Shown here in pieces: positions 20,777-56,599 of a DNA stretch of 64,000 bases (positions within the stretch are counted from its first letter, which is position 1; the number at the start of each line of letters is the position of its first letter). This DNA comes from a virus: the UHGV virus genome UHGV-1351772, one strand, 5' to 3'. Both the position numbers and the translations under genes were made by a program. A model generated the notes under the pieces. The model had not been told where the DNA came from. It worked only from the letters and a program-made list of their open reading frames with translations, and did not search any database.

Positions 20777-21448
20777 TTACTGTTGTTGAAGACGGCTTTC
20801 TAAGCCAGTGATGATTTCGTCGGTGAAATACGCTAAGTCGAGCATTTCAACGTACTCTTGGCGTTCCAAGATTTCTTTCGCAAACAATGCGTTATACCAA
20901 TCAGGAACACGAGATTTACCATTACGACCGAACTTATTTTGTACGTGACTGATTGCATGGAATTTTGAATCGGTAACGGATTTTCCATGGTCACGTGCGT
21001 ATAAGTAAGAGCGGTGCATGTAATTTTTAACTTCTTCGACGGTAGGGATACCGCGATCGGCGGCAGCGACAATTTCAGAAACAATGGAATTATAACCACC
21101 TTTGTGGGAACTCCGATGTTCTAATACTGCATACGCTACCTCGGTTACATCGTCGGAACTAAGTTTAAAACGACGTCTGAGAATAGGCGCAGAATCAAGC
21201 ACGTAATTGAATGCTTTGATGTGGTGGGAGGCACGGTCGGCAGGTGTGGAGAAAATATCGTGCGCTGCTACAGCAACCAGAACATTCTTTAAGTGTTGAG
21301 TTTCGTTCAACAGGTAAGCGATACGGACAGCGTTCGACTTCACAGAAAGAATGTGGTCTAGTCGATGTGCGCTATCGGTATAGCGATAGAAATCGCGGAA
21401 GTGGCTAAGTACACGTTCCCAGAATTTATTAATTTCGGTAGCTTCCAT
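20777..21448 (-). CDS. HD-domain phosphohydrolase (223 aa)
   Basis: H..H then HD signature: HRLDH ... VAVAAHDIF ... LEHRSSH. Confidence 0.6.
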   Translation of the reverse strand: MEATEINKFWERVLSHFRDFYRYTDSAHRLDHILSVKSNAVRIAYLLNETQHLKNVLVAVAAHDIFSTPADRASHHIKAFNYVLDSAPILRRRFKLSSDDVTEVAYAVLEHRSSHKGGYNSIVSEIVAAADRGIPTVEEVKNYMHRSYLYARDHGKSVTDSKFHAISHVQNKFGRNGKSRVPDWYNALFAKEILERQEYVEMLDLAYFTDEIITGLESRLQQQ

Positions 21449-31564: not shown

Positions 31565-33184
31565 TTATGGGTTCTTTAATAACGCTTGCGTTGCACGTTT
31601 AATCACGTTGTTGATAGGATTGATTTTAAAGTTCCCATCAGAATCGAACCAGTAGTTTTTCGAGTGTATCCAGTTCCGGTTTTCCTCGAGCGCTTCCTGG
31701 GACATAGGCGCGTTAAACGACCCGGTATCGCCATCGTAGTCACCCCCTAAGCCACCTAGACGTGAAGGGTGTGGTGCCATCGACTCAACGAAGGTAGGAA
31801 CCGACCGGTCAGGGTAGCTGATAGCCCCTCGGGGTTTTTCAGTTTCCCAGTCATCTTCCAGTTCTTTTAAATATAAAGATGACGTGGTGGTCTCCAATCT
31901 TATGGTCGATGAATACGTCGAGCCTCGGCCTGTAACGGGATAACGTGTAACGAAACCGAAATAATCGTTCCAAAGTTCGTAGCCCGACAAATAAAGCAAT
32001 TCGACGAGTGTCATACCGTGGACGAATTTTCGGTCAAACGTTTTAGGAAGTTCTTCAATATCGTAGAACACCTTAAAATGTTTGGTGTCTTGGTAAACCA
32101 ACGCAACGTAGTGGGTGTCGTCCAACATAATCGGCTGATGGCGAAGCCCGCGAGCTTCCATTCGGTTGATTAAGGATTCAATCCCATCGTCGGTGGTGAA
32201 GGTGTCGTATACACGACCACCTACTTCCAAGAATTCACGTTTAAGGGTTTTGGTGTTTACGCCGTAAAGGTTGCCATCACCGGCACGGATGTTACCGAGG
32301 TAACGTTCACGTATCTGGTATTGGGCGACAGGGAGTAATGCTTTTAAACCCTGGTATAAACCAATTTTGGTGTCGGTAGGACGAATAGCGTCTTCACGAC
32401 CCATGCACTTAGACCCCGTCGAGAACGAGGACAGTACGTTACGTGTCCCGTTCATTAATTTACGAGACGTCACTTTACGACGTTGGAAACCCCCTTTACC
32501 GTCTTGGATGTTAAAGAAATACATCCAGATATCGTTGAAGGTTTGTTGCAGCTTCCAGCGTACGGGGTTAGTTAATTCAACACGGGTTGCCCGGTCAGGG
32601 ATCGCCCTGGCGAGAGATACCAACCGACGATACATCCCGCCGATTTCTTCTTCCTGTTCTCTACCATCTTGTCGAATTACTAAATCGCGTAAACCCGCGG
32701 GTAACACGAGAACGTATCGACTAAGACTAACGGGACGGAATTTCAAAAAGAAATCCACGGTTTCGTCACGTTGTAGGGACTCGTTACGCTTAGGTTTTAA
32801 ATCGTTATAGTGATTGAGGAAGAAGTTAAAACCGGTATCTGCGCCTGGGTCTCCCGGCAAGGCCGGTTCGAAATCTTTTTCTTTTTCGCTCCACGTTGCG
32901 TAGCGTTTTCCAGAACAAATTTCTTCGTAGAGTTGTTTGAGTTGGAATAACGCCAAACACACTGTCGGCGAAATGATATCGAGTTTAATATCGATATAAG
33001 AGAAAGTAGAGTCTCGCGCTTCACTCCCCGTGAGTCCAAATATCTCTGTAGAGTAAAGACCTTCGGGGTGAAAGTTTTTTGTTAACCCCTGGAAAGTATC
33101 CGTGGTCGTGACGGGTCGTAATCGCGACACAAGAGACTTGTTTACATTGAGCAGATAAAAGTCAACCCAATTAAGTTTATTCAC
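31565..33184 (-). CDS. multisubunit RNA polymerase beta-prime-like N-terminal fragment (539 aa)
   Basis: GGDYDGDTGSFNAPMSQEALEE (nt 31727-31741 encode DYDGD) aligns with beta-prime [23 protein letters not shown]. GTG start follows AGGAG. The ORF ends about 45 aa after the metal-binding motif. Confidence 0.75.
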   Translation of the reverse strand: MNKLNWVDFYLLNVNKSLVSRLRPVTTTDTFQGLTKNFHPEGLYSTEIFGLTGSEARDSTFSYIDIKLDIISPTVCLALFQLKQLYEEICSGKRYATWSEKEKDFEPALPGDPGADTGFNFFLNHYNDLKPKRNESLQRDETVDFFLKFRPVSLSRYVLVLPAGLRDLVIRQDGREQEEEIGGMYRRLVSLARAIPDRATRVELTNPVRWKLQQTFNDIWMYFFNIQDGKGGFQRRKVTSRKLMNGTRNVLSSFSTGSKCMGREDAIRPTDTKIGLYQGLKALLPVAQYQIRERYLGNIRAGDGNLYGVNTKTLKREFLEVGGRVYDTFTTDDGIESLINRMEARGLRHQPIMLDDTHYVALVYQDTKHFKVFYDIEELPKTFDRKFVHGMTLVELLYLSGYELWNDYFGFVTRYPVTGRGSTYSSTIRLETTTSSLYLKELEDDWETEKPRGAISYPDRSVPTFVESMAPHPSRLGGLGGDYDGDTGSFNAPMSQEALEENRNWIHSKNYWFDSDGNFKINPINNVIKRATQALLKNP

Positions 33185-33260: not shown

Positions 33261-36200
33261 ATGGACGACTGGGACGATTTTGATGAGCCCCCTCGTCAAC
33301 AAGACCAATCGCGTAACCCGGTCATGGACACATTTCGTGCTGCCCGTAAGTCGGCGTTGTCGACTATCTGGCCCGAAAACAAACGTGATCAGGTTATTTT
33401 AAAAGGGATGCCTAAACCTGCGGCAGAAGCCTACGAAGGCTATCAAAACGTTAAAGCTGCAGGTCAAGACATTCTGGCCCATACGAAAGACGAGATTGAA
33501 AAGACGTCTCGCGTCGTCAAGATGCAAGCGAGACAGTTAGGTCCAACACTGAAACGGTATTTACCGGAATCCGTAACACGGAAAATCGACAAGTGGGCAC
33601 GTAACGATCAAATCGACTATGGGAATTACGATCCTAAACAAGCGATGATGGATCGTGAGCTGGACAGCGTGTTCTCAGGCGCACCGCAAACAGCGGACCA
33701 GCAACGTGAGGCGCAAGAGGGGATGGTTGAAGACCGCTTGCGCGACACGATTAAGGACATGAAGTCCGACGCACTGTTCCAGACCGTAATCGGTATTGCA
33801 AAAGACGTCAACTTAACGACTAGCCTAAGTCGTGGCGTGTTGTTGAATGTTCAGCGTAAGCAGTTAGAGCTGCAATATCGGACGCTGTTTGCTTTGCAGG
33901 ATATTGCGAAACTCAAACAAGACGAGTTTGCACGCAACACCCCGGCATTAGAAGCCATCGTTAAGAACACGGCACTACCCGACTACGCGAAGGAAGAGTT
34001 TTCTGAAATTCGTTGGGCTAATGTAAAACGTAAAGCTGCGGAGTGGATGAACCCCTTACACTACGCAGATAATTTCATTGGCCAGATTCGCGAAAACGCG
34101 AAGAAGAAAATCTCGAACATCTTTAGTGATGGTCGTGGGATTCTAGAACAAGTTCTAGGGATGGCTCAGGAAGATGACTTTGACATGTCGGACAGCTCAT
34201 CGTTGTCTCCTGACCGTCGTAACACAAACTCGCGTAATAAAGCGGCAGGTTTTGCAGGTGGTTGGTTAGCAAAACGTCTCTTACAACCCCAGATCGAACG
34301 ACTTCAGAACTGGACGCGTGGCGAGCTAGAGAAAAACCCAGAAGTCATGAAACGCCTACAGTTGGCGAAGTATGGCTTTGGAAATTTGTCGTCTATTTCT
34401 AACTCGGCAATAGCGGGAGAAACAAGCGGTCCGTTAGCTGATCTGTTTCGACTAATGCACGATTTGGGACTAGTTAACCCGCTACGTCGCGAAACCTTAG
34501 CATTAGACGATCGTTCTGCGGAATCTCTTTCTGCGGCGGCGAAGTTCGATCGTAAAGCTTACCTTAGTATCACAGAAGTTATTCCGACGTTACTGTCCGA
34601 GATTAACAAATCTATTCGTCGTGGGTATGGCGAACACCACGATCAGGTTTATGACCTGACCACGCGCGGTATGGTGGATCGCAAAGTTATTGGTAATCGT
34701 GTACGTAAGGCCGTTGCTAATGACGATCAGCGCAAACGTTTACAGACGTACATCAACGACACTGTCGACTTTATCGATAAAGATAAAACGCTCGATAGGA
34801 AAACACGTCAAGCGTTAGCGGACTACATCGAGTCTCGTGCCTCGGAAGGGAAAGCGTTCGATGTAGGGTCTTTATTGAAAGACCCGATGCACATGTATCG
34901 ATACATGAACGCAAACGCTGTGGAAGCGATTCAGGGTGTTTTAGAAGCCCGTTCTGCGGAACTGGTTGGCGGACACCATGAACTGAGTAATGCGATTTCA
35001 AACAAAATCGCCGCTATCCAGTCAACGATTCGTGCACGTCAAGACACGGTTGATGCTGCGTCTGTGATTTACGGCGAGAACGCACTTCGTGATTCCGGTA
35101 TTTTTAAATACGATGCGAAGAAAGACATTTTCGAGGTCGATAAGGACATTAACGATCCCTATACGTTATTTAATGACCTGTCGATGGGTAAGACCCGCTC
35201 TGGACGTTCGTTAACCCGTGAGCAAGAGATTCAGCGTAAATTGCAAAACGGTTCTGCGCTGGGTGATTACTTGCGACGGATGGGTGCAGGCGCAGAGCCG
35301 AGCTTTGAAGACAAAGAACTGTCCAATGTACGTGGCGGTGGAAAAGGAGGTCGTGGTCGCGGTTTAAGCGCACGCCAACTCGCTGCGGTACTTTATGGAG
35401 AGAAATCCACTAACTTTGTTGAACTGTTAAGCAGTCGTCCAGACACGAACGCCGGGTTGGAACAGCAATTCGACCGTTTGATTGATGCTGTACGTAAACA
35501 GCCCGAATCTAGCACAGTGCAAGATATCCTCAAACACGTTAAGAACATGGATGAGGAAGGTATTCTCCTAGCCAGTTTAGGCGGTAGTCGTGATGACGGT
35601 GACGAATCTGAAAGTTCGAGTGACTCGGGTCGTAAACGTCGTCGTAAACGCAAACGTATTGTGCTAGGCGAGACAGGCTTGTTACGCCGTTGGGCTGGGG
35701 TGCTTTGGGATACCGGTTCAGGTGTAGGGCGGTTTGGTAAGAATCTGTTCCTACGTGGGAAAGATCGTCTGCAGGCTTTAGGTGGTTTTATCCGTGGGAA
35801 ATTCTCAGGCGGCTCCTCCGAAGGACCCGGTGTATTTAGCCGACTGAAAGGGTTAGTAACAGGTACTCTATCGACAGGTTGGAATTCTGCTGTAGCTTTC
35901 GGTAAAGGCGTTTTAGGTGTTCGTGATATTTACGATGAACGTGGCAACGTCGTATTACAAGGAAGTCGTTTAGAAGCTGGGGAATATTACCAGGCTGACC
36001 CGAAAACTGAGAAGCTGATTCAACTTAAAACCCTCGACGATATTAAACTGGGACGTGATATTGTCGATGAAGCGGGTAATTTAATCTTAGCTGCTGCTGA
36101 TTTGGCTGCCGCAGGTAAACTGCGTTTCTACAAAGGTGGTAAAGTTCAAGCGCTTTTCCAGTACATTTCTGGGAAAGCAGGAACGGCGGTAAACAAAGCT

Positions 36201-39200
36201 GTGACTTTACCGAAGAAACTTTTAGGCTTCATTTCACCTAAAGCGGCTTCGTTGTTCGAGAAAGCACGTGAGTGGCTAAATGAGGTTCCAGAGGGCGCAG
36301 AGAAAACCCGTTTACAAAGCATGATTTCCCGTGTAACGGGAATGCCAGCGCGTTTGTGGAACAATGCAAAACGCGGGTTTGAGAAGCTCAAAGAGTTGGC
36401 TTCTGATAACCCTCTGACACGTTGGTGGCAGAACCGTAAGGAAGGGGGTTCTGGTGGTGGGTTTAGTGTGTTCTCATGGTCGAACGGCCGTAAAACTAAC
36501 CACATCTTAATCCGTATCTACAAACTCCTTAACCGGAGATTGCCAGGTGAACCAGAAGATGATACCTGGACAGAACAGATGGAGCGGAATACGGGAGCCA
36601 GTTCAGTTAAAGGATTATTCCAACGTGCTAAAGACATACGCGATGGGTTCCGTGAACATTTTCAGGGGTTCCGGGATTGGCGCGGTCGGATGCGTGACAG
36701 AATGTCCCGTTATCGCGGTGCGGTAGGCGATCGTCTTTCTCGTTGGGGCGGTACCGCACGTGGTTGGTTTGATCGTTTCCGTGGCCGTGCAAGCGATATG
36801 GTCGATACTTTCCGCGATCCGCGTTACGATATCGGCACACGTTATCGAATGGAGAGTCGTTTAGCAGGACGCGATGACGATGTTGCTGAGTTTTATCGTC
36901 AACACATCTACGCAAGAGGTAAGGTGTCTAAAACACGTATCATCGATGCGGCAAAAGAAGACTTAGACACCGTAACGGATAGCGCTGGACGTGTGATTAA
37001 TAAAGGGAAACAGAAAGCCCGTAGCGTTGGGTCAGCTTTACTGGAACGCCTGAACCGAATGGTTAATCTTCAGGAAATGTCATGGTTTAACACCATGCGT
37101 GATTCTGCGGAAAAAGCAGGTGCTTCGGATGGTTTGTTAAGAACTATGTTCAGTAAGTTCGGCCAACGCAATAAACCGCCTGCCAGTGATGAAAAACGTG
37201 ATTACTTCCAGTTCTTCCGACGCCGTCGTCGTTCTAAGGAAGAGGAAAAGGCTAAGAAAGAAGCCGAGAAGAAAGGTGGTAAGCGCGGGGTGATGGATTT
37301 CCTTAAAGGACTGCCGTTGGTAGGACCGATTGTGAGTATTTTAGGCACAGTAGGTTCAATCTTAGGTAAAGTCGCGAAATGGGGAATCTTTAAGCCGGTT
37401 GGGTTTGCAGGCAAAGCGTTGTGGAACGTTGGTAAGTTTGCTGTGACTCGTTTGGCTGTCCCTGCGGTGAGTGCTGTCGCGACGGCAGCATCTGCAGTGG
37501 TAACTGCGGTTGGCTGGCCGATTATCGGTTTGGTCGCTGCAGGCGCTGCGCTATCTTGGTTTGCATATAAAACTGCAACCCGTGTGAATGCTCAGTATTT
37601 GGATAACATGCGATTGGCACAGTACGGATTTAGAGATCACGATGAGTGGTCTTCCGACGATGGCGCAAAAGCACGTTATTTAGAAGACAACTTGAAACCG
37701 TACATCTCTTATACAGAGAATGGCCAAGCACAGTTGCGTGGTTTGTCCGGTGACGACGTGAAGAAACTGGCCGAAGGGTTTGGTACTAACGTAGAAGACA
37801 AAGGCGAAATGCTGGCGTTTAGTGCGTTTATGCTACAACGTTTTGTGCCGATCTATTTACGTTGGATTACGGCACTGAAATCCATGGATAATGATATCGC
37901 GTTAGCAGATGTCGGTAATCCTGCGAAAGTGTCGAAGGCAGACATGTTGAATATCTTCAACAAAATGAAGATGTCGAAAGATGCGCCTGCATTCCGTGCA
38001 TTAGAAGATCCCCGCAAGGTTAACCAAGGTTGGTTCTCTAAAGCGTGGGATTTCGTAACGTTTACCCCGGCCGAGTTTTTGTCAGGCGAAGAAGTCGTTG
38101 AAGCGCAAGAACGCGTGCTTCGTTCGATTAACATGCGTCGTGATGAAAAACGTAAGGATGTAAATGCTACAGGCGGTGTGGCCGAAGGACACAAAGTTGC
38201 TTCTGTGGCAGAATCGACCCAAGCGTTGGCTCAAGCGGATGCGGAACGCAACAAAGAAGTTGCGAAAGTCGAAGGTTGGGAAGACGGCACCGAACAAGTT
38301 CAGGTTCAAGTCGACTGGAGAAGCTTACCTAAAGAAACCGATCTCCGTGATTTGGAGTCCGTAAGGTTGAAAGCTTATGGTGCGGTGAGTATTACTCAAA
38401 CAACCCGTAACCTCTATACGCTCTTGGAACGTCAAGTGTTGCAAGACACCGATGTGAAAAGCTGTACGTATAAAGGCGACTGGAAACGTGCGATTGCGGT
38501 GATTGCGCCTGACGCCATTGGTGGGCCAAAAGAAGATCGGTACAAGAACTGGTTCTATAACCGCTTCTTACCTGTCTTCATGACGTACGTGGTTGGGGTG
38601 AAACGTTATGTCCCTGCTGCCGATCCGATGGACCTACGCGTTACGGGTGGGTTCTTGTATGAAATCGCACTGATGATGCGTGGTGCATACAACCTGAAAG
38701 GGGGTATTCGTCAGTCAGTGTGGGAGGTACCGTTTAACCCGTTAGGGGGAGACGCTAACACCGACGCCGGTTCAGTTGCAACGGAGTTAGAGAACCTGAA
38801 AGAACTGTCTAAGGAAGCTGATTTGGCAGTACGTAAAACGCTGCGTGCTACGCCTTCTGCGGGTTTCCGTGTGAACTGGCAGCGAAAAGATCGCGCGACT
38901 CAGATGTTCTTGACCGACGATGAGAAGGAGCAACCGTCTCGACCACAGATGAACACCTCCTCCTCTTATCGTGACCTATTGCAACCAGCGGCAAACGACG
39001 GTGGGAATTACGGCACACCAAACGATTTGGCCGGTGCTTACGGTCAGATGGGAGCTAAGAATTACGCTGCATTTACTACCGGTAACTTCGGCGTGAAACT
39101 TGGCGATATGCAAGACGGTGACTATAAAACGTTAGCGGCTAAGTATCCAATTTCAACGTTGGGTGACGGATTGAAGCCTAACTTGAATGCGGTTGCAGCA

Positions 39201-40337
39201 CTGATTACAGACGTAGCGAAGATGATGGGTGTTCCTCCAGCGTTAGCACTGGGAATGGCACAAGCAGAATCTGGGCTTAGATACGGTATCAAAGCTAAAG
39301 GAAGTTCTGCGGCTGGCTTGTTCCAGTTCATCAACGATACCTGGGGTGCGCAGATGAAAGCTTATGCGAGACGTTATGGTATCCCGCAAACCAACCAGTA
39401 TGACCCGTGGGCGAATGCTCTGCTTGGCGTCCGTCATATTCGTGATAATATCGAGAAAGCCAGAAAGGATTTAGGTGGTATCGATCCTCCAGGTGCAGCT
39501 GTTTACCTCTACCACTTCTTAGGACAAGGTGGCGGTAAGAAATTCCTGCAAGAATGGAAGCGTGATCCGAACGGGCCATCGTCGCGTGGTGCGTCGGCCG
39601 ATCAAATCGCGGCAAACAGCACAATTTTCTACAAGAATGGAAAATTGCGTAGTTTGGATGAAGTGCTCAACATCATGGGTGGTAAGATTGGTGCTGTAGG
39701 AACAAACGCGATCGCGGCTAACCAGGCATCGCTGAAAGACTTGACGACAGGCGTAACACCAATGCCGTCTTCCCCGGCTATCGCTGCAGGCGCTGCTAAC
39801 GATCCGTCTATCACAGGCCCGGCAGATAACCTGCCAGCCGCGAACGAGGCGAATCGCGACTCCGCTTTAGCAGACAAAGGCGCGATGGGTGCTGAAGATA
39901 TTAAAGCTGCAACTGGTGGTGGTCCGGCTGTGCCGAGTCCTGGCGGCGATGTCACGCCGAGCGATGCGTCAGTTGTTGTAGAGACGGTGGGTCAAAATGC
40001 ACGTGCTGATGGCCTGGCCGAAGAAGAGGTTGCTAAAGTAAAAGAAGGTGCTAGACAGCAGATGGAGAAATCGGCCCGTCCTGCACCAACGGTAACTTCC
40101 GATGCTCAGAGCGGTTCTACAGTGAACAGTGGTGATCCGATCAGTGTACAACAGCTGGCGGTTGCAAAAGAGTCTGCAGGCTATCTGAAAGAGATTGTAA
40201 CAATTCTTCGCCAGCGGCCACAGGCTATGCAAAACGGTCCGGCTAACCCGGCGTCAACCGCTCCGGGTTCGGCGTCACGTAACGTGTCAATAACTCAACC
40301 CGCGCCGCAACTCGACGTTAGTCGTAAATCAGCGTAA
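33261..40337 (+). CDS. giant virion-associated protein (2358 aa) with a hydrophobic cluster and a C-terminal-region lytic transglycosylase (SLT) domain
   Basis: SLT signature AQAESGLRYGIKAKGSSAAGLFQFINDTW (Glu codon at 39267-39269) followed by VYLYHFLGQGG. Several predicted TM helices lie at about nt 37290-37575. Basic KRRRKRKR tracts are present. From memory the architecture resembles phiKZ gp181. The start codon is uncertain. Confidence 0.75.
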   Translation: MDDWDDFDEPPRQQDQSRNPVMDTFRAARKSALSTIWPENKRDQVILKGMPKPAAEAYEGYQNVKAAGQDILAHTKDEIEKTSRVVKMQARQLGPTLKRYLPESVTRKIDKWARNDQIDYGNYDPKQAMMDRELDSVFSGAPQTADQQREAQEGMVEDRLRDTIKDMKSDALFQTVIGIAKDVNLTTSLSRGVLLNVQRKQLELQYRTLFALQDIAKLKQDEFARNTPALEAIVKNTALPDYAKEEFSEIRWANVKRKAAEWMNPLHYADNFIGQIRENAKKKISNIFSDGRGILEQVLGMAQEDDFDMSDSSSLSPDRRNTNSRNKAAGFAGGWLAKRLLQPQIERLQNWTRGELEKNPEVMKRLQLAKYGFGNLSSISNSAIAGETSGPLADLFRLMHDLGLVNPLRRETLALDDRSAESLSAAAKFDRKAYLSITEVIPTLLSEINKSIRRGYGEHHDQVYDLTTRGMVDRKVIGNRVRKAVANDDQRKRLQTYINDTVDFIDKDKTLDRKTRQALADYIESRASEGKAFDVGSLLKDPMHMYRYMNANAVEAIQGVLEARSAELVGGHHELSNAISNKIAAIQSTIRARQDTVDAASVIYGENALRDSGIFKYDAKKDIFEVDKDINDPYTLFNDLSMGKTRSGRSLTREQEIQRKLQNGSALGDYLRRMGAGAEPSFEDKELSNVRGGGKGGRGRGLSARQLAAVLYGEKSTNFVELLSSRPDTNAGLEQQFDRLIDAVRKQPESSTVQDILKHVKNMDEEGILLASLGGSRDDGDESESSSDSGRKRRRKRKRIVLGETGLLRRWAGVLWDTGSGVGRFGKNLFLRGKDRLQALGGFIRGKFSGGSSEGPGVFSRLKGLVTGTLSTGWNSAVAFGKGVLGVRDIYDERGNVVLQGSRLEAGEYYQADPKTEKLIQLKTLDDIKLGRDIVDEAGNLILAAADLAAAGKLRFYKGGKVQALFQYISGKAGTAVNKAVTLPKKLLGFISPKAASLFEKAREWLNEVPEGAEKTRLQSMISRVTGMPARLWNNAKRGFEKLKELASDNPLTRWWQNRKEGGSGGGFSVFSWSNGRKTNHILIRIYKLLNRRLPGEPEDDTWTEQMERNTGASSVKGLFQRAKDIRDGFREHFQGFRDWRGRMRDRMSRYRGAVGDRLSRWGGTARGWFDRFRGRASDMVDTFRDPRYDIGTRYRMESRLAGRDDDVAEFYRQHIYARGKVSKTRIIDAAKEDLDTVTDSAGRVINKGKQKARSVGSALLERLNRMVNLQEMSWFNTMRDSAEKAGASDGLLRTMFSKFGQRNKPPASDEKRDYFQFFRRRRRSKEEEKAKKEAEKKGGKRGVMDFLKGLPLVGPIVSILGTVGSILGKVAKWGIFKPVGFAGKALWNVGKFAVTRLAVPAVSAVATAASAVVTAVGWPIIGLVAAGAALSWFAYKTATRVNAQYLDNMRLAQYGFRDHDEWSSDDGAKARYLEDNLKPYISYTENGQAQLRGLSGDDVKKLAEGFGTNVEDKGEMLAFSAFMLQRFVPIYLRWITALKSMDNDIALADVGNPAKVSKADMLNIFNKMKMSKDAPAFRALEDPRKVNQGWFSKAWDFVTFTPAEFLSGEEVVEAQERVLRSINMRRDEKRKDVNATGGVAEGHKVASVAESTQALAQADAERNKEVAKVEGWEDGTEQVQVQVDWRSLPKETDLRDLESVRLKAYGAVSITQTTRNLYTLLERQVLQDTDVKSCTYKGDWKRAIAVIAPDAIGGPKEDRYKNWFYNRFLPVFMTYVVGVKRYVPAADPMDLRVTGGFLYEIALMMRGAYNLKGGIRQSVWEVPFNPLGGDANTDAGSVATELENLKELSKEADLAVRKTLRATPSAGFRVNWQRKDRATQMFLTDDEKEQPSRPQMNTSSSYRDLLQPAANDGGNYGTPNDLAGAYGQMGAKNYAAFTTGNFGVKLGDMQDGDYKTLAAKYPISTLGDGLKPNLNAVAALITDVAKMMGVPPALALGMAQAESGLRYGIKAKGSSAAGLFQFINDTWGAQMKAYARRYGIPQTNQYDPWANALLGVRHIRDNIEKARKDLGGIDPPGAAVYLYHFLGQGGGKKFLQEWKRDPNGPSSRGASADQIAANSTIFYKNGKLRSLDEVLNIMGGKIGAVGTNAIAANQASLKDLTTGVTPMPSSPAIAAGAANDPSITGPADNLPAANEANRDSALADKGAMGAEDIKAATGGGPAVPSPGGDVTPSDASVVVETVGQNARADGLAEEEVAKVKEGARQQMEKSARPAPTVTSDAQSGSTVNSGDPISVQQLAVAKESAGYLKEIVTILRQRPQAMQNGPANPASTAPGSASRNVSITQPAPQLDVSRKSA

Positions 40338-40346
40338 TAACAACAG

Positions 40347-40373
40347 GGGGGTAGGAAACTACCCCCGTTTTTT
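40347..40373 (+). terminator. rho-independent terminator after the giant gene
   Basis: GGGGGTAG-GAAA-CTACCCCC followed by GTTTTTT. Confidence 0.85.
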
Positions 40374-40384
40374 AGAGGTATAAC

Positions 40385-42556
40385 GTGGACGCTAGATCAG
40401 CTAACGACTCAAGCTGGGTCAGAAATCTATTTAAGGGAGAGTTGGAAGGCCGAGATGAACGTTTTCTGGCCTTGCGACGCTACTCTAACGGTATGATGTC
40501 TTTTGAAGATACGACCATGGGCGGTAGCAAAGCGATTAATAGCCCTCCACAGTTTACGTGGTTTGCAGACCCCCCATCAACAGGGGCATTTGCACGACCC
40601 GGTAATCGTGAAGCGGAGAAAAAGGCGTTGGCTAACGGTATGCCAACCTCTTCTTATCGCTTAGGGACGTATTATTACGAAAGCATTAACCAAAATTCGT
40701 TTTACGTACATTGTCGCTTCGGCAAGCCGAAATATCTGGGAATGGCCGCATTCTTTGCGAATATGTACGATTCCAACTTAGCGTATTTAGCGCGTACGGG
40801 CGATTATCCGGGAATGATCCGCACGATAGCAAGTTATATCGGTGCGGCAGCGATATGGGCCACTGTAGGCACTGTCGCTTTTGCGGTAATTTTAATTACT
40901 CCTCGCATTCTCGCAGCAGCGTTGAATAAACAAACGTCGCGTTACTATTACGTTAAACCGACGATGCATCTGTATTTGCGTGCTGTACAGAACATCTTGA
41001 ATACGCAGCTTGTTTATCGTCGTTTGGTTCCCACGGGTATCTTAGGTACCTTCCAGGTTAGTCAAGACGGCGATGGAAAAGGGAACAAAAAAGCACGTGA
41101 TGATGCTTTTGAAGCGTTGCCGGAGGTTTGGAAAAAAGACGGTGAATTCGATGTCTTTAAGATGATCAACCGTTATCAAACCCTGGCGAACTATCAGAAT
41201 CAACGTTTAAAAGAACTTCGTAAGCAGTCCTCAAGTGACGATGATTTCGCCGAGCGGATACGAAATTTCTATTTGGACAGCACATATGGTGCGGCTTCGT
41301 ATTCTGACGATGTGAGAAATTACGAAGTTTCTTTGCAAGACATGGAGCGGTTAGCTGCATCCGAGCGCGGTGGCTATGCGGCGAAAGACGCGTCGGGCAA
41401 AGATATTAATAGTGTTGATGAACTGGAAAAAGGGGTTCTCGATGCGTTTAGTTCCGGGCTACAAACTGGGGGAACGGCAAGCGACCTAGAGGCGCAGGCG
41501 GCAGAAATCCAAAACAAAATGAACGAGGATTTGGAAAATGCCGATGCGAGTAACCTCACCGAGGGACAACAGATTACGATACAGTCCTGGGCGGATAAAG
41601 GTAAAGAATCGACTATGGAGACGTTCTTCGGCGACTTTGTTAAAGTGGTTGGCGAACAGATTGAAGGGATTAAAGCACAGGCGCTGTCCGAAATCTACAA
41701 CGGTTCTCAGTGGGTAACCTGGAGAATCGATGGGAAGGACACCGTCTCTCGTTCGTTCTCTAACTCTACAAAAGAGCCGGAGATCTCTAGCACAGTTAAC
41801 TCAATGACAGCGAAAGCTCGTCAACTTGAAGTAAACTTGTCCGGCGGGCAAACCGGCTTCAACGCGGTCGATTCATTAATTACGGGCTTTAAGTCCGTAA
41901 TGCGTGGGTTAGCAGATACGTTGCATCTAACGGGGATTATGTCGTTATATAATTCATCCGTCATTGACTTCCCAGAGGTGTGGGACAGTTCAGATGCCTC
42001 GGGCGATGATATTAACTTGACAATACCTTTACGTGCATGGTCTGGAAGTGACCTGGATATCTTCCAGGAAATTCTAGTGCCACTATCCTTTTGGATCGCC
42101 GCAGTATGTCCAATTGCGACAGGTAAACAATCGTTCACTCATCCGTTTTATCTGGAGTGTTACTCGCAAGGTCGATTCTCGTTCCGTAATGCTATCGTAA
42201 CATCTTTGTCTTTACAATTCGGTGTGGGTGGTTTAGGTTGGCGACCAGGTGATTCTGTTCCACTGTCTTGTGATATCAATGTTACCATCCGTGATTTGTC
42301 GCGTGTGATGTATATGCCCATCGTTACAGACACAGGTGTTTGGGACGACGATAATAAATTCAGTGAGTTTATGGCGTGTTTGGGTGCAGCGACGTTGTAC
42401 GAACGTACGAACGGTATAGAGCGTGCCAAGATCCAAGGAAGCATTTGGGCGCAGAACTGGGCATCTGCGTGGTCACAGGGCAGTTTTATTAACTCTGCGT
42501 TTGATGTGCTTCCAGCACGCCAGATCGCGAACATCTTCTTGCCGCAAGCACGTTAA
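40385..42556 (+). CDS. hypothetical protein (723 aa) with one hydrophobic segment
   Basis: GTG start after AGAGGT. Hydrophobic segment is IGAAAIWATVGTVAFAVILITP. No motif recognised. Confidence 0.7.
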   Translation: MDARSANDSSWVRNLFKGELEGRDERFLALRRYSNGMMSFEDTTMGGSKAINSPPQFTWFADPPSTGAFARPGNREAEKKALANGMPTSSYRLGTYYYESINQNSFYVHCRFGKPKYLGMAAFFANMYDSNLAYLARTGDYPGMIRTIASYIGAAAIWATVGTVAFAVILITPRILAAALNKQTSRYYYVKPTMHLYLRAVQNILNTQLVYRRLVPTGILGTFQVSQDGDGKGNKKARDDAFEALPEVWKKDGEFDVFKMINRYQTLANYQNQRLKELRKQSSSDDDFAERIRNFYLDSTYGAASYSDDVRNYEVSLQDMERLAASERGGYAAKDASGKDINSVDELEKGVLDAFSSGLQTGGTASDLEAQAAEIQNKMNEDLENADASNLTEGQQITIQSWADKGKESTMETFFGDFVKVVGEQIEGIKAQALSEIYNGSQWVTWRIDGKDTVSRSFSNSTKEPEISSTVNSMTAKARQLEVNLSGGQTGFNAVDSLITGFKSVMRGLADTLHLTGIMSLYNSSVIDFPEVWDSSDASGDDINLTIPLRAWSGSDLDIFQEILVPLSFWIAAVCPIATGKQSFTHPFYLECYSQGRFSFRNAIVTSLSLQFGVGGLGWRPGDSVPLSCDINVTIRDLSRVMYMPIVTDTGVWDDDNKFSEFMACLGAATLYERTNGIERAKIQGSIWAQNWASAWSQGSFINSAFDVLPARQIANIFLPQAR

Positions 42557-42572
42557 TGTTTGAGAGGAAATA

Positions 42573-43136
42573 ATGGCTAATACGCTATTAGGTAAATCAG
42601 GAAAACAACTGGTTTATGAGTTATTAGTAAAAAAGAATCCTGGTTTGGTAGAGAAAGGTATTACAATCGATAAGTTGAATTTTGGTACACCGTCACATAT
42701 TCCTGCGGTAGAAACACCAGAAACCCAATTTACACGATTAAATACCCAACTTAGCGTCCAGGGAATTATTGAACAGAAAACGTTTGGTAAAATCGACGTT
42801 ATTTATCGTCGATTGGATTTAGAGCACCTCTTAGGTGACTTTGTAGTTTCTGTTGCGGGTGTTAATGCGGCTACGGTATCTGAGGTACTACAGCTTTTCC
42901 GCAATAAGTACAATTTACAGATTACCGACGATGAAGTTGAGAACCCAACAGCTGCACCAGACAGCAAAGATAAAACCATCATTATCATGAATGGGACATC
43001 TTTGGCATGGACAGGGCGGCTGGAAGTGTACTTAACAGAGCTGCCGTCCGACGGTAAGGATATTTCGAAGTTGATTAAAGTCACTGAACTTGACGGTTTG
43101 ACGTATATCTCTTCTGGGATTGTTCCAGGCGCTTAA
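42573..43136 (+). CDS. hypothetical protein (187 aa)
   Basis: GAGAGGAAATA-ATG. Confidence 0.65.
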   Translation: MANTLLGKSGKQLVYELLVKKNPGLVEKGITIDKLNFGTPSHIPAVETPETQFTRLNTQLSVQGIIEQKTFGKIDVIYRRLDLEHLLGDFVVSVAGVNAATVSEVLQLFRNKYNLQITDDEVENPTAAPDSKDKTIIIMNGTSLAWTGRLEVYLTELPSDGKDISKLIKVTELDGLTYISSGIVPGA

Positions 43137-52663: not shown

Positions 52664-53128
52664 ATGGCTGACGAAGAAGTGAAATATCAGGCGTTTGATG
52701 GAGATGTGGACGACGAAGAATCGCTTCTCCGCCAAACGCAACAAGCCCGTGTACGGATTGTGAATCTCATCTTAGACGATCCACAAGCACACAAAGACTT
52801 GAAAACGGTAGACCGATTAGGGTCTTTGCTTAACGACGTTGACAAACAAATCATTTCCAAACGTCGCGTCGCTGCTGCACAGAAAAACAGCGAAGCTAAC
52901 CAAGATTTGGCGAATGCACTTAATAGCATCCTCATGCAACGTGGTAATATCAAAATACGTCGTCACGATGAGGAAGTCGAAGAAACCCAGGGCTACCAGC
53001 CCCCCGTTCCTGTTATTCCGGATGTTGAAGTAACAGAAGGGGAGCTGGCACCAGTAGGCGAACAAATCGATGTTAGGTCCATTATGACGGCGGCGTTTGC
53101 ACGTCCTGAGCAGGGCGAGCAAGACTAA
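52664..53128 (+). CDS. hypothetical acidic protein (154 aa)
   Basis: GAGGTAG RBS. It is a lone plus-strand gene in a minus-strand block. Its 3' end overlaps the convergent gene by 47 nt. Confidence 0.55.
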   Translation: MADEEVKYQAFDGDVDDEESLLRQTQQARVRIVNLILDDPQAHKDLKTVDRLGSLLNDVDKQIISKRRVAAAQKNSEANQDLANALNSILMQRGNIKIRRHDEEVEETQGYQPPVPVIPDVEVTEGELAPVGEQIDVRSIMTAAFARPEQGEQD

Positions 53129-53804
53129 ATAAAGCGGCATCTCGTGGGTCGACACCGACCCACTCTGCCATAAACCGGATATGTTCCTTAAACGGGTTAA
53201 CCCCGTCTTGTTTGATTTGTTCAACCAATTCCCCGGTCAGTTCTGGTGTGAGCATGGCAGGGTGTGTGATGGTAAAGCTCGGAATCGGTTTTTTCAAGTG
53301 CGTAGCATTAAGCTTAATCCACTCGAACCAATCGTACATTATCCAGCAATCCCACGCCAACGACAATCTCCCCGGTGTGAGATCTTCTAACGACCAAGAC
53401 ACTAATTCAACTTGTACGTTATTGTAGTACATCCGAAACAGATTCAAAAAGGCTTGAAGTTCTTCGCCCGTTAAATCCGTATAAGGCCACGTATTGATGG
53501 TCAGAGTGGGTTTTTCAATTGGCGAATGCATTTCGATTTCAAGCAACATACACTCGAATTCGTTTTTCATTGTTGCCAATAATTCAGTAGGCTGCGCATT
53601 AATCAACGCGCGCTTATCCCGCTTCCGCCACACTTCATCCCATTTTTCAAATCCAAGTACGCCAGCCCAAGCTTCTGTATAGCGACGACGATAAACGTCG
53701 TAGTCTAGCAATGTTAAGCTTTCAGGCTTAACGGCTTTTACCCAACCTAAACGCGTATCAAATAACGTATCAATATCGATTAAGAAACGCCGAGATAATC
53801 TCAT
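53082..53804 (-). CDS. hypothetical protein (240 aa) with an N-terminal HAD-like DxDxT motif
   Basis: FLIDIDTLFDTRLG is the only support and it is weak. Confidence 0.55.
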   Translation of the reverse strand: MRLSRRFLIDIDTLFDTRLGWVKAVKPESLTLLDYDVYRRRYTEAWAGVLGFEKWDEVWRKRDKRALINAQPTELLATMKNEFECMLLEIEMHSPIEKPTLTINTWPYTDLTGEELQAFLNLFRMYYNNVQVELVSWSLEDLTPGRLSLAWDCWIMYDWFEWIKLNATHLKKPIPSFTITHPAMLTPELTGELVEQIKQDGVNPFKEHIRFMAEWVGVDPRDAALFSLARPAQDVQTPPS

Positions 53805-54469
53805 GACGGATGGCCTATGTTGTTACCGATATGCATCGCTTTTAGGTACGCCGACCACGTACGCGTTGCTTTAGAACTCGTTCGCTCCGCCCCAGGCAAA
53901 TCAATACGCCCTTTACCGGTTTGGCGTAGCGACTGATAGAAAGCACGTTGTAATGCGTCGTTACCACCACGCGCCCACAAGAACTCTTTCAGCGTCCAGT
54001 CGTGACCATCGGAATACATGATGTATGCTTCTGGGAAGGACACCCCAGATGCTTTGGAAGGACCAACGACTTGACCGGAGAGCTTATCGCGGACTTTGTC
54101 GTTTTTCGCAACCGCCATTTTCTTTTCTTGCATCTGTGTCTGACGACGGACAGGCAAGCGTAAGACTAAGTGAGGGTAACGAGTACGGTGATAGACACCC
54201 GTTTTTGGTTCTGTTAACCAGAGTCGTTGCTCCAGGTTTACCCCGAGAATTTTGCACACCTCGATATTGCGCAGGTGGTCAATTTCGACTTTACTTCCCA
54301 CCGGGTTGTAAATAGGTAAACCGTTACGAAGTCGATTAAACTGTTCGTCGGTCATTCGTGCGAAGGCTTTCTTCGCGGCTTCAGCATTAATGCCAGAAGG
54401 GTCTACCAACTTTAAGATTTGTAAGGCGTAGGCTTCCGCCTTTTTACGCCGTGCTGGTTCGAGTTTCAT
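53801..54469 (-). CDS. possible RNA polymerase beta-like C-terminal fragment (222 aa)
   Basis: LTEPKTGVYHRTRYPHLVLRLP..KNDKVRDKLSGQVVGPSKASGVSFPEAYIMYSDGHDWTLKEFL aligns by eye with beta L.[44 protein letters not shown]. Confidence 0.4.
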   Translation of the reverse strand: MKLEPARRKKAEAYALQILKLVDPSGINAEAAKKAFARMTDEQFNRLRNGLPIYNPVGSKVEIDHLRNIEVCKILGVNLEQRLWLTEPKTGVYHRTRYPHLVLRLPVRRQTQMQEKKMAVAKNDKVRDKLSGQVVGPSKASGVSFPEAYIMYSDGHDWTLKEFLWARGGNDALQRAFYQSLRQTGKGRIDLPGAERTSSKATRTWSAYLKAMHIGNNIGHPS

Positions 54470-54743
54470 TGTCTACCGCCTTACGTAAATTGGATAACGT
54501 TTCTGCTTCAAGCAGGTCAATCCAGTAGCTGATAGCTTCCGTGTTTTCAGGAAGTTCGGAACGTACTGGCGCATACCCGTAACGTACTAATAGATTCGAG
54601 TAATACTCAGCGACCTTTAAACAAAAAGATTCCAGATCGGGAAACGGAAGAGTGAAGGCTTCACGAAATTCGGCCGCTGTTTCTAAATTAACACTTGCCA
54701 ATCCTTCACTTAAGCGTTCCACAATCTCCGTTTGATAACGCAT
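54444..54743 (-). CDS. hypothetical protein (99 aa)
   Basis: TAAGGAGTC RBS. Confidence 0.6.
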   Translation of the reverse strand: MRYQTEIVERLSEGLASVNLETAAEFREAFTLPFPDLESFCLKVAEYYSNLLVRYGYAPVRSELPENTEAISYWIDLLEAETLSNLRKAVDNETRTSTA

Positions 54744-54787
54744 GATGACTCCTTAGGTCGGGTAGGGTTTACCCTACCCGAGCCTAT

Positions 54788-56284
54788 TTATTTCTTTTTC
54801 GTCAGGAACTTCGGTTCTAGTCCATCGACAGCCATACCCAGAATGGTACGTGCAGTCAGTGTACGTTTACCACCTTTGGTTTCCTGGTCTTTAAACATCC
54901 AGTATTCTACCGTGTTGTCCAGAATTTCATTCCAGTCCCACTTCTCGTCAATCATTTTGTAAATCTCACCCATGCTGAGATGATACTTCATTTCAAGACG
55001 ATGGTAGTTGTTTTGCATATAAGCAATTGCCGCCGTGATCTCTAAAGCGCGACGTAAGCGTGCGTTATCAGAAATCATATCACGGATTGTCGTGCGTTGG
55101 AATTTCACACCAGGTAGAATGTCCAGTTCTTTGATGGAGCCGCCACTACCGCTTGACGTAAAACCAAAGTCTGACTTCTTCAGCGTGTCACTTAAATAGT
55201 GCCACAGGCTCAGGTGATATAACAGACCCATTTCCTGAGAGAAGATCATCTGGAATTTCACACCAGTGTGACCACCCTTCGCACGATACTGAGTAAAGGT
55301 GATAATCTTCAAGTCGTTTACCGAAGCATTCATCGCTTTAGAACGTGACGTCGGATAAAGTTCTTCGTTAACACCGGTCTGCGCGTTATAGCTCTGGTCT
55401 TTTTTCAGCTCCCCTGATTTCGTCGCGACGATAAAAGAGTTTGTTAAAAAGCTAAGCTGACGGCGAGGAATACCTGCGAATTTTAAATCGTCGTTGGCAT
55501 CGTCAAGAATTTTCGCATTTGCTTTTTGTGCCTGACGGCCACCTGCCATCGCTTTCCCAGAGTCATCGGCCATCTGTGCCACGAAGCCCATGTAAAAACC
55601 ACCACGTGCAAACGCAGACGGCCAGCGGCTCATCATATTCGATTTTTGCAGCGCATCGTGGGCGTTCAGGATGTTCTGATCAGAATCCCCAATATCCGTT
55701 TTTGCGTGCTTGTCTTCCAGCGAACTGGAATGCCACTCTGACAGGGAGTCGATAGAATAAAGCCAGGGGTCCAGGATTTCTTTTAACTTACGACGAACCG
55801 GATCGGGGAACGGTGTTACGCGGGTTTTACCAGACATATACTGTTTGAAGCGTTTTTCAACTTCATCACGAATATAATCACTGTAATACTGTTCCCCAGG
55901 CATTACGTCAGAACCGACCAGGTTATAACGACCTTCGTGGATAAGTTCCAGTACGGATGTTCCGTCGTCGATACCGTTGGCGTTCATGGCAGAGATGTAC
56001 CCAGTTTCTAAACGATCGAGGGCAGCTGACACTTCTGTATCGTACTTAGAACCCCACTCTGCTTTATAACGTTGCAGGATTTGGAAAATACAGAAATCTA
56101 ACAAGGTGGATTTAAAAGTGTTACCGCGCCCTGCGAAACCCATGATGTGGGCAAAACCACCGTTAAGGTAGTACAAACCATCTTCACCTTTTTCGTAGTT
56201 ACCTAAGGCATGATCCATGATGGTGTAAACGTTAAAACGTGGACGAATTACTTCACCGATAACTTGCTTAGTTGGGCCTGCCAT
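54788..56284 (-). CDS. UvsX/RecA-like recombinase (498 aa)
   Basis: GFAHIMGFAGRGNTFKSTLL..YDTE parallels T4 UvsX GLLILAGPSKSFKSNFG..YDSE. A later segment LYSIDSLSEW parallels VFIDSLGNL. Confidence 0.55.
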   Translation of the reverse strand: MAGPTKQVIGEVIRPRFNVYTIMDHALGNYEKGEDGLYYLNGGFAHIMGFAGRGNTFKSTLLDFCIFQILQRYKAEWGSKYDTEVSAALDRLETGYISAMNANGIDDGTSVLELIHEGRYNLVGSDVMPGEQYYSDYIRDEVEKRFKQYMSGKTRVTPFPDPVRRKLKEILDPWLYSIDSLSEWHSSSLEDKHAKTDIGDSDQNILNAHDALQKSNMMSRWPSAFARGGFYMGFVAQMADDSGKAMAGGRQAQKANAKILDDANDDLKFAGIPRRQLSFLTNSFIVATKSGELKKDQSYNAQTGVNEELYPTSRSKAMNASVNDLKIITFTQYRAKGGHTGVKFQMIFSQEMGLLYHLSLWHYLSDTLKKSDFGFTSSGSGGSIKELDILPGVKFQRTTIRDMISDNARLRRALEITAAIAYMQNNYHRLEMKYHLSMGEIYKMIDEKWDWNEILDNTVEYWMFKDQETKGGKRTLTARTILGMAVDGLEPKFLTKKK

Positions 56285-56299: not shown

Positions 56300-56599
56300 T
56301 TAACGATTCTTGGTCGGAAGAAGAAGACGGCGGTTGTGCCAGAATTCAAAGTAGGTCTCTACCCACTCAGTAACTTCTTCCGCATTTTCAGGATAAGGGT
56401 TTTCAATAGACTCGAAACGGCGTTTATTACGCTCGTCAATTTCCAGTTCCATAACACGTTTACCGCTCGGGCACGACGTTACGCTCAAGACTTTTCCAAC
56501 TTGAATAGGTTTACCGTTCTGACCTTTTTTAACAGGGGTCAGATAAATTTCCGGTTCTAAACGCGGTGTGGTGTTTCGAGTCAGTAATTTGATTTTCAT
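56300..56599 (-). CDS. hypothetical protein (99 aa)
   Basis: AAGGTAAAG RBS. Confidence 0.6.
   Translation of the reverse strand: MKIKLLTRNTTPRLEPEIYLTPVKKGQNGKPIQVGKVLSVTSCPSGKRVMELEIDERNKRRFESIENPYPENAEEVTEWVETYFEFWHNRRLLLPTKNR

What the first reader, a model, noticed from the sequence alone, without database searches (positions are those of the whole stretch)
53801..54469. Probable detached C-terminal piece of the RNAP beta subunit, 20 kb from the main beta-like gene
The 1388-aa beta-like protein ends just after the GDK..NKG-equivalent region. The 222-aa ORF contains, in the right order, segments that resemble the remaining beta C-terminus. These are L.E.KTG..(hydrophobic)LRL, then NDKVRDKLSG..GP, then GVSFPEAYIMYSDGHDWTLKEFL (compare [26 protein letters not shown]). 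If correct, the catalytic subunit is assembled from genes in different transcription blocks. The fragment could also belong to a second polymerase set.
Basis: inference. Interest (0 to 1): 0.5.

Follow-up and report, generated by a model that had tools for sequence, protein, structure and literature searches.

The report
Detached tail of phage RNA polymerase beta
This 222-residue gene really does encode the separated C-terminal piece of the beta subunit of a giant phage's virion-packaged RNA polymerase, but the same subunit is already described and experimentally supported in the related phages SPN3US (gp218) and phiKZ (gp149), so the finding is correct but ordinary.

Summary
The ORF at 53801..54469 (minus strand, 222 aa) is real. 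[quoted passage not shown]

- **Family:** PHROG 3233, E 6e-93; about 83-85% identical to Asesino and SPFM phages; 36% identical to phiKZ gp149, with the same gene neighbourhood.
- **Homology to bacterial beta:** a profile-profile alignment places residues 8-190 on E. coli beta 1134-1316 (P 1.5e-7; reversed and shuffled controls P >= 0.03).
- **Junction:** the 1388-aa beta-N protein aligns to E. coli 1050-1136, so the two pieces abut without gap or overlap.
- **Unsplit relatives:** natural homologs exist with both pieces in one ORF (P0115, P0156).
- **Structure:** an AlphaFold model of the joined pieces hits only RNAP beta chains in the PDB (best E 2.5e-9).

Published work shows SPN3US gp218 is in the virion and is lost when beta-N is absent. 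phiKZ orf149 appears essential by transposon sequencing. Its alternative, a second polymerase set, is not.

Novelty: already known.

Side observation: in metagenomic relatives the beta-C module is fused behind an SNF2 helicase like phiKZ virion helicase gp203, behind HD-type domains, or both.

The parts
53801..54469 (-). Beta-C subunit of the virion RNA polymerase (222 aa). Ortholog of SPN3US gp218 and phiKZ gp149. Equivalent to E. coli beta about 1134-1342 (conserved region I plus the C-terminal clamp segment).
   Evidence: ORF. PHROG 3233, E 6e-93. 36% identity to phiKZ gp149. hhalign to RpoB C-terminus, P 1.5e-7, with controls. Foldseek top hits are all RNAP beta chains.
27389..31555 (-). 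Beta-N subunit of the vRNAP (1388 aa). Ortholog of phiKZ gp178 and SPN3US gp241. Its C-terminus ends where beta-C begins (E. coli beta about 1136).
   Evidence: PHROG 3148, score 1909 bits. 30% identity over the full length to phiKZ gp178. hhalign of the family C-terminus to E. coli beta 1050-1136, P 1.2e-4. Contiguous with beta-C in the unsplit homolog P0115.
31565..33184 (-). Beta'-N subunit of the vRNAP (539 aa). Ortholog of phiKZ gp180 and SPN3US gp240.
   Evidence: PHROG 2986, E 6e-233. tblastn with phiKZ gp180, E 3e-66. Subunit role taken from PMC5105663.
24844..25578 (-). Candidate beta'-C subunit of the vRNAP (244 aa). Ortholog of phiKZ gp176 and SPN3US gp244.
   Evidence: PHROG 2926, E 5e-91. 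tblastn with phiKZ gp176, E 5e-29. The role was proposed in PMC5105663 and PMC7598289. Its homology to beta' was not tested here.
20777..21448 (-). Free-standing HD-domain protein (223 aa). A possible accessory partner of beta-C, because the homologous domain is fused in front of beta-C in other lineages. This is an inference only.
   Evidence: Relatives are annotated as HD domain protein or metal-dependent phosphohydrolase. The domain is found N-terminal to beta-C in P0141, P0146, P0171, P0177 and others.

Best explanation
The window comes from an SPN3US-like, phiKZ-related jumbo phage. The 222-aa ORF encodes beta-C, one of five polypeptides that together replace the bacterial beta and beta' subunits in the phage's virion-packaged multisubunit RNA polymerase.

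The beta chain is cut at a position equivalent to E. coli beta residue about 1135. Everything up to and including the second double-psi beta-barrel and the GDK...NKG lysines lies in the 1388-aa beta-N protein.

Beta-C supplies the rest:
- Conserved region I. This includes the segment equivalent to E. coli 1233-1243, which lines the active centre. The family-invariant RRQTQ...KKM motif sits opposite LKLNH...DKM.
- The GGQRFGEME...TLQEML-like helices.
- The C-terminal segment, which in cellular enzymes packs against the N-terminal part of beta' to form the clamp.

Beta-C is translated from its own operon, 22 kb from beta-N. It is inferred to dock onto beta-N and beta'-N to complete the catalytic cleft. 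The complex is then packaged into the capsid and injected with the DNA to transcribe early genes.

Shown here: orthology, the homology map, the seamless junction and the existence of unsplit relatives. Shown in the literature for orthologs: virion location, dependence on beta-N for packaging, and apparent essentiality by transposon sequencing. Inferred: the physical contacts and the catalytic contribution in this phage.
For: - **Family membership:** PHROG 3233 'RNA polymerase beta subunit', E 6e-93. tblastn finds 297 phage records, 291 of them near full length (at least 80% of the query). Identity is 83-85% to Asesino gp240 and SPFM phages and 36% to phiKZ-like phages, where the gene is annotated as RNA polymerase beta subunit.
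- **Direct comparison:** BLASTP to phiKZ gp149 gives 36% identity, E 1e-43.
- **Synteny with phiKZ:** gp152(UvsX-like)-...-gp149-...-gp147, and gp175-gp176-gp177-gp178-gp180-gp181-gp182.
- **Homology to bacterial beta:** hhalign of the beta-C family against 81 RpoB C-termini gives probability 94%, P 1.5e-7, mapping residues 8-190 to E. coli 1134-1316. Controls gave P >= 0.03.
- **Junction:** beta-N residues 1295-1379 map to E. coli 1050-1136.
- **Unsplit homologs:** P0115 (1685 aa) aligns in one HSP across the beta-N plus beta-C concatenate, E 2e-145, and is a verified ORF on a contig. P0156 sits at the beta-N locus with the same downstream genes.
- **Structure:** the AF2 model of beta-N(1020-1388) plus beta-C has pLDDT 84-95 over most of the beta-C half. 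Foldseek against the PDB gives 151 hits at E <= 1e-3. The top 50 are all RNAP beta chains, best E 2.5e-9, and include the AR9 nvRNAP chain 7s01_C.
- **Literature:** SPN3US gp218 = beta-C, found in virions and absent in the gp241 amber mutant (PMC5105663). The vRNAP core has five polypeptides (PMC7598289). phiKZ orf149 appears essential by TnSeq (PMC12676376).
Against: No Pfam model matches the protein or any of 24 family members. HMMER searches of PDB sequences find nothing, even with a family profile.

Against E. coli RpoB alone, the family HMM gives only a weak co-linear match (3.2 bits). The link to cellular beta therefore rests on profile-profile and fold comparison.

Many canonical region I residues are replaced. 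For example, E. coli H1237 is Gln, and the GGQRFGEME motif is SKASGVSFPE.

No solved vRNAP structure exists among PDB sequences within reach. Contacts and catalytic role are inferred, and nothing was measured on this particular phage.
Confidence: 0.93

Rival explanations
1. The fragment belongs to the second (non-virion) RNA polymerase set rather than to the enzyme containing the 1388-aa protein.
For: phiKZ-like phages do encode two multisubunit polymerases (PMC8287921; PMC7598289).
Against: The RpoB C-terminal profile aligns to phiKZ nvRNAP gp71-73 across region H and into region I (template 386-585, P 4e-5). The nvRNAP beta therefore already carries this segment.

Reviews state that the extra split is specific to the vRNAP. 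The orthologs gp149 and gp218 are virion proteins, and gp218 co-depends on beta-N. Beta-N ends exactly where beta-C starts. No nvRNAP subunit homolog lies in the window.
Confidence: 0.02
2. It is a generic virion or internal head structural protein, as many GenBank records annotate it ('putative virion structural protein 17'). On this view the resemblance to RpoB is coincidental.
For: Annotations in SPFM, CR5, Asesino and other phages read 'virion structural protein'. There are no Pfam or PDB sequence hits.
Against: The profile-profile match is far above the reversed and shuffled controls. It is co-linear over 175 columns and lies exactly at the end of RpoB.

Structure searches return only RNAP beta chains. 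Natural proteins carry beta-N and beta-C as one chain. The 'structural' label only reflects detection in virions, which is expected for a packaged polymerase.
Confidence: 0.02
3. Beta-C is mainly an adaptor that tethers accessory enzymes (virion SNF2 helicase, HD phosphohydrolase) to the polymerase, rather than a catalytic-cleft element.
For: 33 of the 147 best family representatives carry extra N-terminal domains in front of beta-C: SNF2 helicase, DUF5662 or an HD-like domain. HD-beta-C fusions are reported in Bacillus phages.
Against: The fusions show that accessory domains use beta-C as an anchor, not that this is its main role. Family-invariant residues sit opposite active-centre-proximal residues of region I. 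phiKZ orf149 appears essential by TnSeq, whereas helicase gp203 is dispensable. In this phage beta-C carries no extra domain.
Confidence: 0.03

Closest known systems
Salmonella phage SPN3US gp218 (vRNAP beta-C)
   Same: Same length (222 aa). About 83% identity to the SPN3US-like SPFM phages. Same neighbours: a UvsX-like gene upstream and a gp219/gp147-like gene downstream. Same separation from the beta-N/beta'-N block. gp218 is in the virion and needs gp241 for packaging.
   Different: A different phage species. The nearest GenBank phage protein is 85.5% identical. The exact protein is labelled only 'hypothetical protein' in public records. No experiments exist for this phage.
Pseudomonas phage phiKZ gp149 (vRNAP subunit, head protein)
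   Same: 36% identity over the full length. Conserved synteny. Annotated as RNA polymerase beta subunit and structural head protein. Appears essential by TnSeq.
   Different: More divergent. phiKZ has an extra 7-8 residues in the loop after the third helix. The gap to gp178 is about 27 kb rather than 22 kb.
Bacterial RpoB C-terminal region (E. coli beta about 1134-1342, conserved region I and the clamp segment)
   Same: Co-linear profile homology and fold-level matches. K117-M118, Q133, E147, the TL.E.L helix and the C-terminal amphipathic segment are retained.
   Different: It is a separate polypeptide. It falls below the Pfam thresholds. Only 17% identity, and several canonical residues are replaced, for example H1237 to Q and GGQRFGEME to SKASGVSFPE.
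Bacillus phage AR9-type vRNAP beta-C with an N-terminal HD domain
   Same: The same beta-C module at the C-terminus. The literature describes the HD fusion. Similar metagenomic architectures were seen here.
   Different: Here beta-C is bare. An HD-domain protein is encoded separately at 20777..21448.
phiKZ/AR9 non-virion RNAP beta (gp123 plus gp71-73; PDB 7OGP and 7S01 families)
   Same: Also a split beta-like subunit of a jumbo-phage two-barrel RNAP. 7s01_C appears among the fold hits.
   Different: It is split at a different site, N-terminal to the barrel. Its C-terminal subunit keeps region I. It is not packaged.

Membership tests
Jumbo-phage vRNAP beta-C subunit (phiKZ gp149 / SPN3US gp218; PHROG 3233) | Significant full-length sequence match to the family | tested here: met
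   PHROG 3233, E 6e-93, residues 5-220 on profile 2-224 of 225. 36% identity, E 1e-43 to phiKZ gp149. 291 of 297 phage records match over at least 80% of the query.
Jumbo-phage vRNAP beta-C subunit (phiKZ gp149 / SPN3US gp218; PHROG 3233) | Stand-alone ORF of about 220 aa in the conserved neighbourhood (UvsX-like gene upstream, gp147/gp219-like gene downstream), apart from the beta-N/beta'-N block | tested here: met
   ORF map. phiKZ gene table. tblastn of phiKZ gp147, gp152, gp175, gp176, gp180, gp181 and gp182 onto the window. Asesino table.
Jumbo-phage vRNAP beta-C subunit (phiKZ gp149 / SPN3US gp218; PHROG 3233) | Homologous to the C-terminal region of cellular beta and complementary to beta-N, with no gap or overlap | tested here: met
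   Beta-C residues 8-190 map to E. coli 1134-1316. Beta-N residues 1295-1379 map to E. coli 1050-1136. Controls. Unsplit homologs. Fold hits.
Jumbo-phage vRNAP beta-C subunit (phiKZ gp149 / SPN3US gp218; PHROG 3233) | Packaged in the virion and dependent on beta-N for incorporation | not testable with these tools
   Shown for SPN3US gp218 by mass spectrometry of amber mutants (PMC5105663). phiKZ gp149 is annotated as a head protein. Nothing was measured for this phage.
Jumbo-phage vRNAP beta-C subunit (phiKZ gp149 / SPN3US gp218; PHROG 3233) | Physical subunit of an active RNA polymerase complex | not testable with these tools
   No vRNAP chain is detectable among PDB sequences. No multimer prediction tool was available.
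Cellular RNA polymerase beta subunit (Pfam RNA_pol_Rpb2_6/7 models) | Score above the Pfam gathering threshold | tested here: not met
   No Pfam family at E <= 10 for the protein. None of the Rpb2 models matched among 24 family members. The 1388-aa and 539-aa proteins also have no Pfam hit. It is a remote homolog, not a Pfam-recognised member.
Non-virion RNAP beta subunits (phiKZ gp123 / gp71-73) | C-terminal beta subunit that contains both the barrel and region I in one chain | tested here: not met
   The ORF contains only the region I segment. The beta-C family profile does not align significantly to gp71-73 (P 0.21), whereas the RpoB profile does (P 4e-5).

The most novel reading that the evidence does not exclude
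Beta-C may be the docking point on the virion polymerase for accessory enzymes.

In many uncultured relatives the same about 220-aa module is the C-terminal end of large proteins. These carry an SNF2 helicase (30% identical, E 4.5e-96, to the phiKZ head-packaged helicase gp203), HD-type or DUF5662 domains, or both.

By Rosetta-stone logic, the separately encoded virion SNF2 helicase and the HD protein at 20777..21448 would bind the vRNAP at the beta C-terminus in SPN3US-like and phiKZ-like phages. They would act on the early transcription complex, perhaps in a RapA-like recycling role.

I found no statement of the SNF2-beta-C fusion in the papers read. A functional helicase-RNAP link was predicted from gene neighbourhoods in PMC7824862.
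Probability: 0.3. Interest if true: 0.45.

Novelty: already known. Interest (0 to 1): 0.15.

Why it matters
The case shows that a catalytic subunit conserved throughout cellular life can be cut into separately encoded pieces, scattered over a genome and still assembled, packaged and injected. That point is already established for SPN3US and phiKZ. This window adds another member plus a clean residue-level map of the split, at E. coli beta about 1135.

A practical point is that the exact protein is labelled 'hypothetical protein' or 'virion structural protein' in many public records. A correct label would help annotation.

The fusion architectures seen in passing give a testable lead on what the packaged SNF2 helicase and HD protein do.

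Tried and rejected
- **Pfam:** scans of the ORF, of 24 family members and of the 1388-aa and 539-aa proteins gave no RNAP family.
- **PDB sequence searches:** phmmer and a family-profile hmmsearch gave no RNAP hit. With all filters off, the profile gives only a 3.2-bit co-linear match to E. coli RpoB 1160-1309.
- **First AF2 model:** beta-C alone with a 24-row MSA gave pLDDT 66 with a poor C-terminal half. Foldseek E-values were only 2e-3 or worse, although all top hits were RpoB.
- **Single-sequence hhalign tests:**
  - The beta-N tail against the RpoB profile gave nothing. A 42-sequence family alignment was needed.
  - The beta-C family against single-sequence phiKZ gp71-73 was not significant.
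- **Paired AF2 alignment:** It was replaced by a mixed alignment, which left the beta-N half poorly modelled.
- **Promoter and terminator scan of 52000-57600:** counts did not exceed the shuffles. Transcription units are therefore argued from gene orientation only.
- **Long family members:** I first expected them all to be unsplit beta. Most are not. Only P0115 and P0156 are.

Full report
**Observation.** The ORF listing shows an ATG-started 222-aa ORF at 53801..54469 on the minus strand. It lies in a run of co-oriented genes:
- 56300..56599
- 54788..56284, UvsX-like (PHROG 97)
- 54444..54743
- the ORF itself
- 53082..53804

Its stop overlaps the next start (ATGA). A Shine-Dalgarno-like AAGGCGG precedes its ATG. 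A block of plus-strand genes (33261..43136) lies between the two loci. The two loci therefore cannot share a transcript, which follows directly from the ORF map.

**What family it is.** The protein matches PHROG 3233 'RNA polymerase beta subunit' at E 6e-93 over its whole length. tblastn against GenBank phages finds 297 records, 291 of them covering at least 80% of the query. Identity is 85.5% to Erwinia phage Asesino gp240, about 83% to the SPN3US-like Salmonella SPFM phages, and 36% to phiKZ-like phages. Annotation varies between 'RNA polymerase beta subunit', 'virion structural protein' and 'hypothetical'.

In phiKZ the hit is gp149 (224 aa, annotated 'RNA polymerase beta subunit; structural head protein'), at 36% identity and E 1e-43. 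Synteny is conserved on both sides:
- phiKZ gp152, gp149 and gp147 correspond to window 54788..56284, 53801..54469 and 53082..53804.
- phiKZ gp175, gp176, gp178, gp180, gp181 and gp182 correspond to window 24009..24812 (Peptidase S80 prohead protease), 24844..25578, 27389..31555, 31565..33184, 33261..40337 and 40385..42556.

The window is thus an SPN3US-like member of the phiKZ-related jumbo phages. IMG/VR holds contigs of 221-225 kb that match the tested beta-N and beta-C segments at 100% identity.

**Is it really the end of beta?** Standard tools say nothing. There was no Pfam hit for the ORF or for 24 family members. There was no PDB sequence hit with phmmer or with a family profile.

I therefore built a 183-sequence alignment of the family. 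I also built an 81-sequence alignment of proteobacterial RpoB C-termini: E. coli residues 1050-1342 plus 80 genomes. hhalign gives probability 94%, P 1.5e-7 and 175 aligned columns. Beta-C residues 8-190 fall on E. coli beta 1134-1316. The reversed template gives P 0.03, and 20 column-shuffled templates give P >= 0.06.

It also shows that the family-invariant R108-R-Q-T-Q112 and K117-M118 lie opposite E. coli L1233-K-L-N-H1237 and K1242-M1243. From my own recall, not tested here, H1237 is one of the residues cross-linked to the initiating nucleotide, so this segment lines the active centre.

The last 30 residues (TRTWSAYLKAMHIGNNI) resemble the E. coli C-terminal ESFNVLLKEIRSLGINI by eye. hhalign did not extend that far.

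**Complementarity with beta-N.** A 42-sequence alignment of the beta-N C-terminus (window plus IMG/VR relatives) aligns residues 1295-1379 to E. coli beta 1050-1136. This includes AADKM..NQLKT opposite PGDKM..HGNKG (P 1.2e-4). Beta-N therefore stops, and beta-C starts, at E. coli position about 1135 with neither gap nor overlap.

**Natural unsplit forms.** A profile search of 1.84 billion representatives found 923 family members. Among the 147 new representatives in the best-150 list, 33 are long proteins with the module at the very C-terminus.
- P0115 (1685 aa) aligns as a single BLASTP HSP to the artificial beta-N plus beta-C concatenate (positions 426-1606 of 1610, E 2e-145). Its sequence is continuous across the junction. 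It is a verified ORF on a 7-kb contig.
- P0156 (582 aa) joins the last about 370 residues of beta-N to beta-C. It sits at the beta-N locus, followed by gp177-like, gp176-like and protease genes. The 223 nt upstream are closed in all frames, so it may be the 3' exon of an interrupted gene.

These proteins are direct evidence that the 222-aa ORF is the continuation of the beta-N chain.

**Structure.** Beta-C alone with a 24-row MSA gave a mediocre model (pLDDT 66). Even so, the 50 best Foldseek hits in the PDB were all bacterial beta chains, best E 2.3e-3.

A model of beta-N(1020-1388) joined to beta-C, with a 76-row MSA, gave pLDDT 84-95 over most of the beta-C half. The beta-N half had only three rows and stayed poor. 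Foldseek then returned 151 PDB hits at E <= 1e-3. The top 50 were all RNAP beta subunits (best E 2.5e-9, probability 1.00) and included the phage AR9 non-virion RNAP chain 7s01_C. Global TM-scores are low (about 0.2), so the relative domain placement in the model should not be trusted.

**Which polymerase?** The RpoB C-terminal profile aligns to phiKZ nvRNAP gp71-73 from the GDK region well into region I (P 4e-5). The non-virion enzyme therefore has its own copy of this segment. Reviews state that this extra split is specific to the vRNAP. No homolog of gp71, gp73, gp74 (nvRNAP) or gp80 (vRNAP beta'-M) lies in the window. The window does contain four of the five vRNAP subunits.

**What is already published.** Thomas et al. 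2016 (PMC5105663) list SPN3US gp218 (222 aa) as vRNAP beta-C. They detect it in virions and tailless heads. They show that it vanishes together with gp42, gp240 and gp244 when gp241 (beta-N) carries an amber mutation. [quoted passage not shown]

The review PMC7598289 describes the five-polypeptide vRNAP core. Iyer et al. (PMC7824862) describe the separate C-terminal extension protein and its HD fusion in Bacillus phages. A 2025 preprint finds that phiKZ orf149 appears essential by transposon sequencing. No vRNAP structure seems to be available.

**Mechanism (inferred).** Beta-C completes the beta side of the cleft by supplying region I and the clamp-forming C-terminus. It probably assembles with beta-N and beta'-N before packaging, is injected with the DNA, and takes part in early transcription. 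Why the chain is cut here is unknown. Unsplit relatives exist, and other lineages attach accessory domains to the N-terminus of the module. Both facts suggest the cut created a free N-terminus that evolution has used as an attachment point.

**Verdict.** The alternative, a second polymerase set, is rejected. The feature is already known, so interest is low.

Noticed in passing
Proteins P0094, P0108, P0112, P0116, P0130, P0131, P0146, P0148, P0171; locus L175:778-4335: In uncultured relatives the beta-C module is the C-terminal end of an SNF2-family helicase (Pfam SNF2-rel_dom plus Helicase_C). The helicase part is 30% identical (E 4.5e-96) to phiKZ gp203, the head-packaged, non-essential helicase. 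P0116 also carries an intein (Hint plus LAGLIDADG). The fusion links the virion helicase physically to the vRNAP. I did not find it stated in the papers read.
   Followed up: partly
window 20777..21448 (-): A 223-aa protein (PHROG 3921, no Pfam hit) is annotated in relatives as an HD-domain or metal-dependent phosphohydrolase protein. A homologous domain lies N-terminal to beta-C in P0112, P0130, P0141, P0146, P0159 (twice), P0171 and P0177. A further 13 long members carry DUF5662 instead. This may be the free-standing counterpart of the HD domain fused to beta-C in Bacillus phage AR9.
   Followed up: partly
L133:354-5411 (P0115); L174:224-1972 (P0156): These are natural unsplit beta-like proteins. 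P0156 sits at the beta-N locus and is preceded by 223 nt closed in all frames, which may be the 3' end of an intron. The direction of evolution, split versus fusion, is unresolved.
   Followed up: partly
window 53801..54469 (-), exact protein: The identical 222-aa sequence is on record from 258 contigs, the longest 228.6 kb. These include NCBI isolate assemblies labelled Shigella flexneri. Close variants occur in Salmonella enterica assemblies. All are named 'hypothetical protein'. This jumbo phage therefore turns up often in enterobacterial isolate sequencing and is under-annotated.
   Followed up: no
window 24844..25578 (-) and 24009..24812 (-): The 244-aa ORF is the ortholog of phiKZ gp176 and SPN3US gp244, the proposed beta'-C subunit of the vRNAP. 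Next to it is the Peptidase S80 prohead protease. Four of the five vRNAP subunits are thus in the window. The gp80/gp42-like beta'-M is not.
   Followed up: partly
window 54758..54781: A perfect 10-bp GC-rich hairpin (TCGGGTAGGG-TTTA-CCCTACCCGA) sits in the 44-nt spacer between the UvsX-like gene and the 99-aa ORF. On the coding (minus) strand it is followed by AAGGAG and the next start codon, not by a T-run. It may be an RNA processing or stability element rather than a terminator.
   Followed up: no
window 53082..53804 (-): A 240-aa gene is translationally coupled to beta-C through an ATGA overlap. It is the ortholog of phiKZ gp147 and, by the table in PMC5105663, of the essential SPN3US gp219. 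Its function is unknown (PHROG 3328, no Pfam hit). Its 3' end overlaps a convergent plus-strand ORF (52664..53128) by 47 nt.
   Followed up: no
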